Below the pieces are notes generated by a model. The model saw only the letters and a list, made by a program, of their open reading frames with translations. It made no database searches and was not told where the DNA came from. Made by a program: the position numbers and the translations under genes. Positions 4,383 through 58,806 of a stretch of 64,000 nt of DNA are shown in pieces. The DNA comes from Octopus vulgaris (lineage: Eukaryota), in NCBI GenBank assembly GCA_951406725.2, contig OX597819.1, positions 57,846,001-57,910,000 of the forward strand, written 5' to 3'. The stretch's first letter is position 1, and every line of letters begins with the position of its first letter.

Positions 4383-4667
4383 CAGCGACAGTGGACGCTG
4401 GAAAAAGTATATGTATTTGTGAAGGAAATCTAATTCTCGCCGACAACTGTGATTGTCACACGCTGACGAGAGGTCAATACCTCGAAACTCGAGTCCGTGT
4501 GTATCATAAGTTGAAGACGGGAAGGATGACTTCCCTTTGCAAATACTGACAGGACACAGAAAGTGTGTCTATGGCCAGCTGGAGGAGTGTGTCCTCCTGG
4601 GGCTAAAAACTACAGTAGCATCCACCCTTAGGGGTTAGCCATATTGAAATGGCAAATATACGTCACG

Positions 4668-53844: not shown

Positions 53845-54091
53845 AGATATAGATATATAGATATATATAATCTAATACATGGAAAGAATTTTGTTTTATA
53901 GGGATGGAAACATCCAATTTTCACTAATTCAACTGGGTTAATGCCCAATACCGTAGAAAATAATTTCTACAAAACAAATGGGTATATATATTCAATACAC
54001 AAATAACAAAATGAAGATGGAGAGTTCAATAGATATATATGTTAATTTATTAACATATTATATCATTATAATGATATAAATATTAATAATC

Positions 54092-54186
54092 CCTAGAATT
54101 GTTTCAATTCAAACCTGAAACCTATAACAAATTTATAAAAATTCATATTTTGGAAAAACAAATTCAGTAAAAATCTCATCAGGGCA
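54092..54186 (-). ncRNA. Degenerate hammerhead motif with long stem II
   Basis: Reverse complement CC CTGATGA GATT...AATT GAAA CAATTC TA GG; weak stem I; lies upstream of and opposite to the PLE at 55.2 kb. Confidence 0.45.
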
Positions 54187-54267
54187 AAATAGAGCAGAAA
54201 TTACATGTTAGAAACTTGTGATCCTAAAGCATACTGTGTATGTTTTTATAAATTTGTCCACTCACTC

Positions 54268-54335
<68 letters not shown>

Positions 54336-54398
54336 GAACATAATATTTCTTATCAGGGACTAATAGACTTGGCACCGTTCATTAATCGGTGGGCATTC

Positions 54399-54436
54399 AA
54401 AGCAATGATTAGTAACTTACGAAACCGGTATGCTTT
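54399..54436 (+). ncRNA. Minimal type I hammerhead with A3-U8 core variant
   Basis: AAAGCA ATGATTA GTA-ACT-TAC GAAA C-CG-G TA TGCTTT; perfect 6-bp stem I, palindromic ACCGGT, GUA site at 54428-54430. Confidence 0.8.
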
Positions 54437-55149
54437 CGAATCTCTTTAATAATTCACAATAATGACTTTTATTACTTTTATTCCTACCTCTGTTCATCTA
54501 ATTGTATATATCTTTCGTTATTTTTCATAAAAAGCCTTTACTTTTTTTATTTCCAATGTGCATTTTCGCTTATTTTTCTTACTTTCCCCTTACATTACCA
54601 CGTATAGTCTCTATTTTCTTTTTGTAACATATTTCTATTATATATATATTAGAAAAAAGGAGTAGAGATGGCTTTTGAGGGATACTTTTTATTTTAATGA
54701 TAATGTTTACAGTTACTTTCATGAGTTTCGAGTTTTTCGATAACCGTTTGCAATCTGAAATTCTGTGGTTTAGATGGTTGTTTGTATATAGCAAAAGATT
54801 TTTTCGTACAAGTATACAAAAAGAAAAAAGAAAAAAAGAAAAACAAAAGGTAAAAAATAATAAATAAATAGTATAAAAACTAATATAAAGTAATATAAAA
54901 ATTATAAAAGAATGCAAAAAGTAAATACAACACCATGCGTAAAAAAAAGAAGAAAAGAAAAATTGAAAAACAGAAAAAGAAAAGGTGGAAGGTAAGACAA
55001 CACATAGTAGTTGAGATTGGCAGTGAGAAGAGATTAGTGTATCAGGAATAAAGAAATGGAATATTTTTAGGAGTGTTCAAAATGGTTGTTGAGTTCTTGT
55101 CAAAAGATGATTTTGTGAATCTTTTGAGGTCATTTTGTTCATTTTTCAC

Positions 55150-56770
55150 AGTTGGTAGTGTAACTGTAAACATTATCAATGAAATAAAAATTATCCCCCC
55201 AAAAGTCATCTCTACTCAATTTTGAAACATATTATACTGTATCAAGAACTTTTTTATTATTCTAATATTTTACGGTTTGGTACAAGACAAGATGTCTTAC
55301 ACAACATCAATTTCAACAGCCGAGACACAGAAATCTTAAACATTATTGGACGAGATTTCAATCATGATAAACAAATATGAATCCCTTACTAATGCTTTCT
55401 ATGTAATGGAACAAGAAACACGGACCTACAGAGAAACACTGCATTCCCTTCTTACAGACCGTTATCAAAATGAAAACCAAAGTAGAACTGGAGTGGATCC
55501 CCACAAATTAAATTCAACCACACAAAAGATATTAAAAGAATGTTATGAACTCAACTTGGAAAAGGAAGCATACGAAAAGAAAACCCAGGTGAAAAACATC
55601 TGAAACAGTATATTAAATAAAAGAAAACAAGCATATTGGAGAGCCCTAAGAAATGAAAACCTAGCTAGCACATATACACAATGGAGGAACAAGGAAGTAA
55701 TACTCCTAAGAAAATTTCGTATCAAAGAAACAACGTCGGAAACAAATGAAAAAATAAACATTCGCCTTAATTTAGCAGTACAGAGATTTGAAGGTGCAAC
55801 CACACTACTTCGCCTTAGACTAACAAACTTCCAAAGGAAATTTGAGACATATGACACCTATATACATGAAGAAATTAGCAAAATATGCAACGGTAGTATC
55901 CAACGCAAATTTCTAGACGTCGAAAAGCGATGCCATTAGAGACAAGATGAAGTCCAAGAATATCTTAAAATCAAAAATCCACTGGCTACAGGAATACGAA
56001 AACAACTATGGTAAAAACCAGATAAAACCTAAACACCGACCTACTACCACAGCCGTAAGAACTCAAAACGCCATTAAGGTAAGGAAATTTTCCACAAGAC
56101 AGACAAAGATACAGCAGTTCTCTAAGAAAAACACATTTATGATCATACGCAAATATAACAAGAAATAAGAGAACTTCGAATCCCAACCAAAGAATAAATA
56201 GAACTCTCCCGGCACCATATCATAGACCCAAACAAACCAGATGGAAAGACATTAGAATAAGGAATCAACCCCCAATCCAACAACTAAGACAGCATCCAGC
56301 ACACAAGGCTTAAGCAGCTTGATGGATAAGTTTCTAAAACCTTTATGTAAAATGATACTAAGTTTTGTCCAGGACGATATGAACTTTTTGAACTACATAC
56401 CTAAAAGTGTCAACCAGGAAACAATTCGAGATAGTTTCGATGTAACTAGTCTATACACCGACATCCCACACGACCTAAGAATTGAAGCTGTAAACTTCTG
56501 CTTAACAGAACATCCGAACTATATCATGGAATGATTCTCAAAAACCCTCATTTTAGAAGGATTAAAATTAATACTGGAAAATAACCACTTCTTCGATAAC
56601 AACTTTTCCTTACAAATAAAATAAGCGGTGATGGGCACAAAAGTAGCCCCCAAATATGCAACACTCGTTATGGGCTTCTTAGAAGTCAAACTTTATTCCC
56701 AACTAAGGGAAATATTTAACGAACAATTCTCCATTTATATATAAAAAAGAAACAATTGGAAACGATATAT
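55150..56770 (+). mobile_element. Penelope-like element, degraded N-terminus plus RT N-half
   Basis: DKFLKPL..SFVQDDMNFL, SFDVTSLYTDIPHD, LENNHFF, VMGTKVAPKYATLVMGFLE, WKRYI (breaks into (TA)n where YIDD is expected). Confidence 0.88.
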
Positions 56771-58379: not shown

Positions 58380-58806
58380 CTTAACTAATATAGACATTCT
58401 TAAAAATAAGAATAAGGCTGTCGCTGATTAGCTCCATGAAGCCATCGCCTCAAGCTAGCTACTTGACACACAAACTGCGTCCGTTATTAAACCTTCGAAC
58501 AGGGGAGGTCAGCCGCTTCAACCTGCTAGTCCGACAGCTACAGACATGTTTCAGGGTTGTTGCCCCTTCTCAATGCAGCGTAGTCAGACCTGCAGGTGTC
58601 GCTACTGACCGTATCCGTTCGAAGATTCTATTTACGCAGTTTGTGTGTCAAGTAGCTAACTTGAGGCGATGGCTTCATGGAGCTAATCAGCGACAGCTTT
58701 ATTCTTATTTTTAAGAATGCCATATTAGTATGGAGATAACTATTAATTTCCAGAAACGCTGTCGTAATCTCTTTTAAAGAGACTTGGTAATTTTATTATT
58801 TCTATT
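58376..58806 (-). mobile_element. Foldback element in (TA)n with ~86-bp inverted arms and an apical hammerhead
   Basis: 58395-58480 pairs with 58634-58719; inner pairs ACCTGC/GCAGGT and GTCCGAC/GTCAGAC lead into the HHR. Confidence 0.8.
58537..58579 (-). ncRNA. Minimal type I hammerhead with U3-A8 core variant
   Basis: Reverse complement GCTGCA TTGAGAA GGGG-CAACAA-CCCT GAAA C-AT-G TC TGTAGC; palindromic ACATGT, GUC site. Confidence 0.78.

What the first reader, a model, noticed from the sequence alone, without database searches (positions are those of the whole stretch)
54396..54440. Natural A3-U8 hammerhead (AUGAUUA core)
Seen: all other core positions and all three stems are intact, while both 3 and 8 are changed by transversions that keep Watson-Crick pairing. 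That is unlikely as random decay and implies selection for catalysis. It lies in a TA-bounded segment upstream of a PLE ORF and near an opposite-strand HHR relic (54092-54186).
Basis: partly seen in the sequence, partly recalled or inferred. Interest (0 to 1): 0.75.

Follow-up and report, generated by a model that had tools for sequence, protein, structure and literature searches.

The report
Retroelement hammerheads that swap core pair
This is a dead fragment of a Penelope-type jumping gene whose hammerhead RNA motif has an A-U pair where the textbook core has C-G, and related elements in the same genome carry all four Watson-Crick versions of that pair, which likely means the self-cutting fold stayed under selection, though cutting is untested.

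Summary
54399-54436 is a type I hammerhead with core A3-UGA-U7-U8-A9 and a palindromic stem III predicted to form only in a dimer. A3-U8 is the family state, not a quirk of this copy: 58 of 71 copies picked by a downstream motif carry it and 7 carry G3-C8. The motif lies in the 3' UTR of a Neptune-type Penelope-like element. This copy is a 5'-truncated fragment, and copies decay neutrally. The ORF downstream belongs to a different family. A3-U8 most likely came from G3-C8 by two transitions, not from C3-G8 by two transversions. Genome-wide, one hammerhead pattern gives U3-A8 74%, A3-U8 13%, U3.G8 5%, C3-G8 3.5%, G3-C8 1.3% and all other pairs 2.5% (excess over control). So selection likely acted on master elements to keep the 3-8 pair of the active fold. 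Cleavage is not shown, and a published mutagenesis found only the G-C swap rescued activity. Natural U3-A8 is published; my searches found no natural A3-U8 or G3-C8. This scan noted A3-U8 before on other DNA (a probable frog element and a phage). Verdict: new variant of a known kind.

The parts
54338..54649 (+). 5'-truncated 3' end (3' UTR) of a Neptune-type Penelope-like element, family A
   Evidence: 40 scored relatives at 87-92% identity end at the same point; long copies carry RT, C-x4-C-x2-C linker and GIY-YIG upstream; 19 of 312 sites differ from the family majority
54395..54404 (+). Stem I, 5' arm (54399-54404 core-proximal 6 bp, 54395-54398 extension)
   Evidence: pair 2.3-1.3 is G-C in 39 and T-A in 8 of 58 lineage rows
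54405..54411 (+). Core strand A3-U4-G5-A6-U7-U8-A9 (A3 = 54405, U8 = 54410)
   Evidence: family state
54412..54420 (+). Stem II, 3 bp closed by G10.1-C11.1, 3-nt loop
54421..54430 (+). G12-A13-A14, six-base palindrome (54424-54429) for an intermolecular stem III, and A17; predicted cut between 54430 and 54431
   Evidence: sequence; unconstrained co-fold of two copies gives the hammerhead dimer; the cut site is inferred from hammerhead numbering
54431..54441 (+). Stem I, 3' arm with a one-base bulge at 54437
54271..54332 (.). (TA)n tract at the 5' junction (likely insertion target)
   Evidence: most family copies end in (TA)n at the 3' side
54654..56760 (+). Neighbouring, different Penelope-like family B: inverted piece 54654-55157, then a broken ORF body 55156-56760; not the parent of the hammerhead
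   Evidence: four family-B copies fall outside lineage A in the protein tree
54090..54186 (-). Decayed C3-G8 hammerhead with long stem II in a third, older repeat family (fragment 53875-54268)

Best explanation
The stretch is the truncated, neutrally decaying 3' end of a Neptune-type Penelope-like retrotransposon whose master copies carried an A3-U8 hammerhead motif that likely cut the element's RNA as a dimer, probably with help from the element's protein. Shown: anatomy, family context, A3-U8 as subfamily state, a linked G3-C8 subfamily, paired 3-8 states across amplified families, neutral decay of copies. Predicted: two motifs pair through the six-base palindrome to build stem III. Inferred: the 3-8 pair positions residue 8, whose ribose rather than base is thought to act in catalysis, so base identity can change if pairing is kept; masters that lost the pair did not amplify; cleavage after A17 processed the transcript. 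This single copy most likely does nothing.
For: Copies picked without regard to the core: 58 A-U, 7 G-C, 6 other of 71. Pattern with free 3/8: 80 A-U, 13 G-C, 7 other among the 100 listed of 139 (hand tally). A-U and G-C copies differ at linked flanking sites, so they are subfamilies; mismatched copies with enough flank carry the alleles of one or the other, as single later mutations would. Genome-wide match/control counts: total 11639/748, U-A 8144/63 (35), A-U 1503/43 (32), U.G 631/68 (71), C-G 450/69 (34), G-C 159/20 (33), G.U 44/52 (73); the other ten combinations are 275 of 10891 over control, 2.5%, no more than decay would give. Trees need at least three changes of the pair among U-A, A-U and G-C, each ending paired. 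A second A3-U8 lineage (CL1) keeps A3-U8 across subfamilies whose median flank identities run from 73 to 89%, while its stem I pair 2.3-1.3 switches (A-T 18, G-C 8 of 28). Co-fold: dimer -18.9 vs monomer fold -4.6 kcal/mol. Literature: the 3-8 pair is seen only in the active conformation (PMC3884650, passages); in a Penelope-like element, C3G or G8C abolish cleavage, the double mutant partly restores it, and the element's protein is needed (PMC11167929, passages).
Against: No cleavage was shown. In three RNA runs (86, 46 and 39 reads laid, about 6% of each run read) reads run across the predicted cut and no pile-up of ends appears; depth is low, most reads come from other copies, and the same absence is reported for a tested PLE hammerhead (PMC11167929). 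[quoted passage not shown] Hammerhead mutants did not affect insertion in vitro (PMC11167929). 0 of 20 long copies have a second same-strand match to the pattern within about 6 kb upstream, so the dimer partner is not seen in the DNA. No amplified G3.U8 or A3.C8 intermediate was found for the switch. The other core positions were fixed by my patterns, so their conservation across families is built in.
Confidence: 0.72

Rival explanations
1. The active-like fold, including the 3-8 pair, is kept as a binding or priming structure for the element's reverse transcriptase, and cleavage is slight or irrelevant.
For: A3-U8 and U3-A8 did not rescue activity in one hammerhead (PMC9901934); PLE hammerheads cleave poorly in vitro (PMC4209133); cleavage was dispensable for insertion in vitro (PMC11167929); no RNA ends at the site.
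Against: The 3-8 pair is specific to the catalytic conformation (PMC3884650). H17 is A or C and the palindromic stem III is kept in the A-U and G-C families, though my pattern excluded G17.
Confidence: 0.17
2. The hammerhead was already dead, and A3-U8 is a chance double change in one master element that hitchhiked to high copy number.
For: Within one family, copy number reflects one or a few masters, so the 80:13 split is not many events; trees inside the young radiation are poorly resolved (bootstrap not settled).
Against: Several independent switches all end paired, no mismatched family stands out in the counts, and stems keep covarying after A3-U8 was fixed. No local hairpin could convert 3 and 8 together, because the flanking 2.1 and 9 are both A in this family.
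Confidence: 0.07
3. This particular copy is maintained by the host as a working ribozyme.
For: It keeps all core positions and stems.
Against: It is 6% diverged like its relatives; many copies keep a perfect core by chance (139 exact pattern matches); only 3 of 171 laid RNA reads were 99% or more alike; it has no same-strand partner of its family in the window.
Confidence: 0.04

Closest known systems
Minimal and short-stem-III type I hammerheads of metazoan Penelope-like elements (Cervera and De la Pena 2014, PMC4209133; read parts 1-2 of 4 of the text and parts 1-2 of 3 of supplement file 2)
   Same: Type I topology, G10.1-C11.1, palindromic short stem III for dimer formation, position at the 3' end of mostly 5'-truncated copies, and a natural change of the core pair (U3-A8 in about 1,300 Schistosoma motifs).
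   Different: A3-U8 and G3-C8 are absent from the 56 representatives in their Fig. S3 text (C3-G8 except two U3-A8 and one U3-G8). Here C3-G8 is a small minority of matches to my pattern, stem II is only 2-4 bp, and no extra base follows A9.
Natural core variants of Perreault et al. 2011 (PMC3088659, passages)
   Same: First natural covariation at 3-8 (U3-A8).
   Different: Described as rare; A3-U8 and G3-C8 are not named in the passages seen; figures and supplements were not seen.
Poseidon-Ac hammerhead of Anolis (PMC11167929, passages)
   Same: PLE hammerhead whose cleavage depends on the 3-8 pair and on the element's protein; no RNA-seq ends at the cut.
   Different: C3-G8 in nature; G3-C8 only as an engineered mutant; A3-U8 not mentioned in the passages seen.
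Non-LTR retrozymes (PMC7229834, passages)
   Same: Type I hammerheads with short stem III in animal repeats.
   Different: Retrozymes are short non-coding tandem arrays; family A is the 3' UTR of an RT-endonuclease element of about 3.1 kb.

Membership tests
Type I short-stem-III hammerhead of Penelope-like elements | Invariant core U4 G5 A6 A9 G12 A13 A14 A15.1 U16.1 and H17 | tested here: met
Type I short-stem-III hammerhead of Penelope-like elements | C at 3 and G at 8 (consensus letters) | tested here: not met
   A3 and U8; filed as a variant, not a consensus member
Type I short-stem-III hammerhead of Penelope-like elements | Watson-Crick complementarity between 3 and 8 | tested here: met
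   A-U here, G-C in sister subfamilies
Type I short-stem-III hammerhead of Penelope-like elements | Stems I and II with covariation | tested here: met
   stem I 6-10 bp with compensatory pair 2.3-1.3; stem II 3 bp, weak
Type I short-stem-III hammerhead of Penelope-like elements | Palindromic stem III allowing a dimer | tested here: met
   co-fold minimum equals the hammerhead dimer; a prediction only
Type I short-stem-III hammerhead of Penelope-like elements | Site-specific self-cleavage after H17 | not testable with these tools
   RNA reads show no pile-up of ends; 5' ends of copies near the cut are inconclusive
Rfam hammerhead models | Covariance-model match | tested here: not met
   no hammerhead family among 66 matches at E<=1
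Neptune-type EN+ Penelope-like element | RT followed by C-terminal GIY-YIG endonuclease in one ORF | tested here: met
   translations of long copies; GIY-YIG PF01541 at E 1.6e-4, just under the cut-off; RVT_1 at E 6e-8 in a sister family with 62% identity over 112 residues, no Pfam hit in the four family-A ORF pieces scanned for RT
Neptune-type EN+ Penelope-like element | Cys-rich linker between RT and EN | tested here: met
   C-x4-C-x2-C; the linker is shared with the Nematis clade (PMC8557442), and clade placement against named references was not tested
Neptune-type EN+ Penelope-like element | Partial tandem copies (pLTR) flanking a full ORF | tested here: inconclusive
   0 of 20 long copies show an upstream same-strand hammerhead match; inverted truncated copies are present
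Non-LTR retrozyme | Short non-coding head-to-tail tandem array | tested here: not met
   dispersed 3' ends of a coding element

The most novel reading that the evidence does not exclude
Penelope-like elements in this animal lineage have freed the hammerhead's 3-8 core pair from its C-G identity: active ribozymes run on any Watson-Crick pair or U.G because the element's protein chaperones the dimer. The swaps would tune cutting rate, and CUGANGA-based searches would miss most retroelement hammerheads in such genomes.
Probability: 0.35. Interest if true: 0.7.

Novelty: new variant of a known kind. Interest (0 to 1): 0.5.

Why it matters
C3 and G8 are treated as near-invariant, and most hammerhead searches require them. 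If A3-U8 and G3-C8 motifs cut, nature uses all four pairs at the contact that marks the active fold, against mutagenesis in which only G-C rescued. One lineage holds G3-C8 and A3-U8 subfamilies about 90% alike, a ready natural series for measuring how core-pair identity, dimer formation and protein help set the rate. It also bears on whether Penelope hammerheads are functional or passengers: repeated paired switches point to function. In this genome a C3-G8-only search would find about 4% of the motifs my pattern finds.

Tried and rejected
Rfam scan: no hammerhead match. Idea that the motif is the pLTR of the downstream ORF: rejected; none of 29 relatives continues into it, and none of 19 family-B loci carries the hammerhead segment. 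Search for family B's own hammerhead: its 3' ends were truncated in the copies held, so the outgroup's 3-8 state is unknown; only 3 endonuclease ends not picked by a hammerhead pattern were available and none showed one, too few to test. RNA: no RNA holder listed as such; reads from three runs with the same species label show no pile-up of ends; the second A3-U8 lineage was not examined in RNA. Copies starting at the predicted cut: 5 of 89 begin within 3 nt of it and 0 at +4 to +8, against roughly 1.5 expected (p 0.02-0.07), but the cut follows TA, which is also the target, so this is inconclusive. An amplified G3.U8 intermediate: none, 44 matches vs 52 control. A single A3-U8 copy in a U3-A8 family (L092) is compatible with chance and was not counted as an origin. 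The first protein tree put CL1 with U3-A8 families; the longer one put it beside lineage A at 90/86, so one versus two first origins of A3-U8 is open. Rows left out: the window's own family-B ORF (146 columns); L063; L087's endonuclease belongs to another insertion; L062 and L063 were mis-parsed, re-read and left out's pair table. Three key papers were not held (Przybilski and Hammann 2007, Nelson and Uhlenbeck 2008, Lunse et al. 2017), so engineered A3-U8 rates and any natural cases there were not seen.

Full report
Observation. Stem I (54399-54404 with 54431-54436) flanks A3-U4-G5-A6-U7-U8-A9, a 3-bp stem II, G12-A13-A14, a six-base palindrome and A17. Stem III cannot close in one molecule. 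Two copies folded without constraints give exactly the hammerhead dimer, -18.9 kcal/mol against -4.6 for the monomer fold. Rfam does not recognise it.

Context. 54338-54649 is a repeat: 40 scored relatives of 2204 first-look candidates match at 87-92% and end at the same base before (TA)n. Longer copies continue upstream into an RT, a C-x4-C-x2-C linker and a GIY-YIG endonuclease whose last aligned residue is about 270 nt before the core; the element is about 3.1 kb. This is the layout of Neptune- or Nematis-type Penelope-like elements (PMC8557442, passages); I did not place it against named references. The ORF that follows in the window (54654-56760) is a different family with an inverted 5' piece. 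The minus-strand relic is a third, older family with C3-G8.

Is A3-U8 the family state? Yes. With 3 and 8 free, the pattern has 139 matches and 0 controls; of the 100 listed I counted 80 A-U, 13 G-C, 4 A-C and one each of C-C, U-C and G-U. Of 89 distinct copies picked only by a motif downstream of the cut (from 90 loci taken out of 183 matches), 71 retain the core region: 58 A-U, 7 G-C, 2 G-U, 2 A-A, 1 A-C, 1 A-G; a few of these are local duplicates. A-U and G-C copies differ at linked sites up to 435 nt away, so they come from different masters; mismatched copies with enough flank carry one subfamily's alleles.

Where selection acted. Not on copies: nine core positions differ in 9 of 269 cells against 305 of 7075 in flanks (p=0.54), and in 48 of 634 cells in the unbiased set. 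The window copy differs from the majority at 19 of 312 sites. In a DNA tree of 66 copies with the core strand masked, the three most divergent groups are all G3-C8, and A3-U8 lies inside the young radiation (deep forks 99-100, shallow ones unresolved, bootstrap not settled, midpoint root). So the likely path is G3-C8 to A3-U8 by two transitions. No amplified intermediate was found.

The wider picture. A family-independent pattern gives 11639 matches against 748 controls. Over control: U3-A8 74.2%, A3-U8 13.4%, U3.G8 5.2%, C3-G8 3.5%, G3-C8 1.3%, G3.U8 none, ten other combinations 2.5%. The pattern demands G straight after A9, a stem II region of at most 22 nt and a six-base stem III, so it misses other hammerhead shapes (among them the C3-G8 motif at 4463 and the relic family); these are shares of this shape only, and copy number weights a few large families. 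Most A3-U8 matches belong to a second lineage (CL1), which keeps A3-U8 across diverged subfamilies while stem I covaries. A protein tree of 24 rows rooted on family B reads (U-A families, (U-A family, (CL1 A-U, (old G-C, (young G-C and A-U))))). A single clade of all A-U rows is rejected (p-AU 1e-42), but the place of CL1 differs, and the root is assumed. Either way the pair changed at least three times and ended paired each time.

Mechanism. The 3-8 pair forms in the active hammerhead conformation and not in the ground state (PMC3884650, passages); the 2'-OH of residue 8 is the proposed general acid (PMC6155905, passages; PMC8495972 notes a metal-bound water as an alternative). Keeping the pair while changing its letters is what selection for the active fold predicts. 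In the one PLE tested this way, single mutants are dead, G3-C8 partly rescues, and the element's protein is required (PMC11167929, passages). I therefore infer protein-assisted dimer cleavage of the master's transcript after A17. Against this: only the G-C swap rescued a type III hammerhead in a full double-mutant scan (PMC9901934, passages; its data files not read); cleavage was not needed for insertion in vitro (PMC11167929); RNA reads here cross the site with no pile-up of ends; and 0 of 20 long copies show a same-strand partner upstream.

What is known. Natural U3-A8 is published (PMC3088659 passages; PMC4209133). The text of that paper's 56-motif alignment holds no A3-U8 or G3-C8 (figure panels read only as scrambled text, supplement file 1 not searchable, part 3 of file 2 not read). 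Searches found no natural A3-U8; G3-C8 appeared only as an engineered variant. Three directly relevant papers were not held, so the claim of absence from print is limited. This scan has noted A3-U8 in a probable frog Penelope family and in a phage; those notes are unchecked.

Verdict. A real and well-supported natural core variant inside a known system. The single copy is ordinary debris. The value lies in the family series and in the near replacement of C3-G8 among motifs of this shape in this genome. New variant of a known kind; interest 0.5.

Noticed in passing
window 4457-4501 (+), core at 4463: A well-formed C3-G8 type I hammerhead (stem I 6 bp, stem II 5 bp, palindromic stem III).
   Followed up: no
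window, core at 58573 (-): A U3-A8 type I hammerhead whose stems resemble those of the tandem family in L093-L096.
   Followed up: no
L093-L096 and L161-L167: Retrozyme-like tandem arrays of about 360 bp, one family with U3-A8 and one with C3-G8, both young (94-99% alike). A U3-A8 retrozyme would be the easiest non-canonical case to test for circular RNA.
   Followed up: partly
L256-L267 and listing: At least two amplified subfamilies with a U3.G8 wobble (631 matches, 68 control), whereas G3.U8 is not amplified: an asymmetry that may mark the allowed path between C-G and U-A.
   Followed up: partly
lineage A: The G3-C8 subfamilies have A17, almost never C17, which would avoid a G3-C17 mispair; PMC3884650 mentions G3-C8 being more active with G17 than with C17. 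One lineage only.
   Followed up: no
L289, L299, L301, L311-L313, L321, L326, L335, L341: A subfamily with a 21-nt tandem duplication of the stem I arm and part of the core just upstream of the hammerhead.
   Followed up: no
reads joining at 54417: One diverged copy with an A3-U8 core but altered stem II and palindrome is transcribed in all three RNA runs (34, 17 and 8 reads), probably inside a host transcript.
   Followed up: no
L272-L277: Six copies spaced about 20 kb apart on contig C1, suggesting a large tandem segmental duplication.
   Followed up: no
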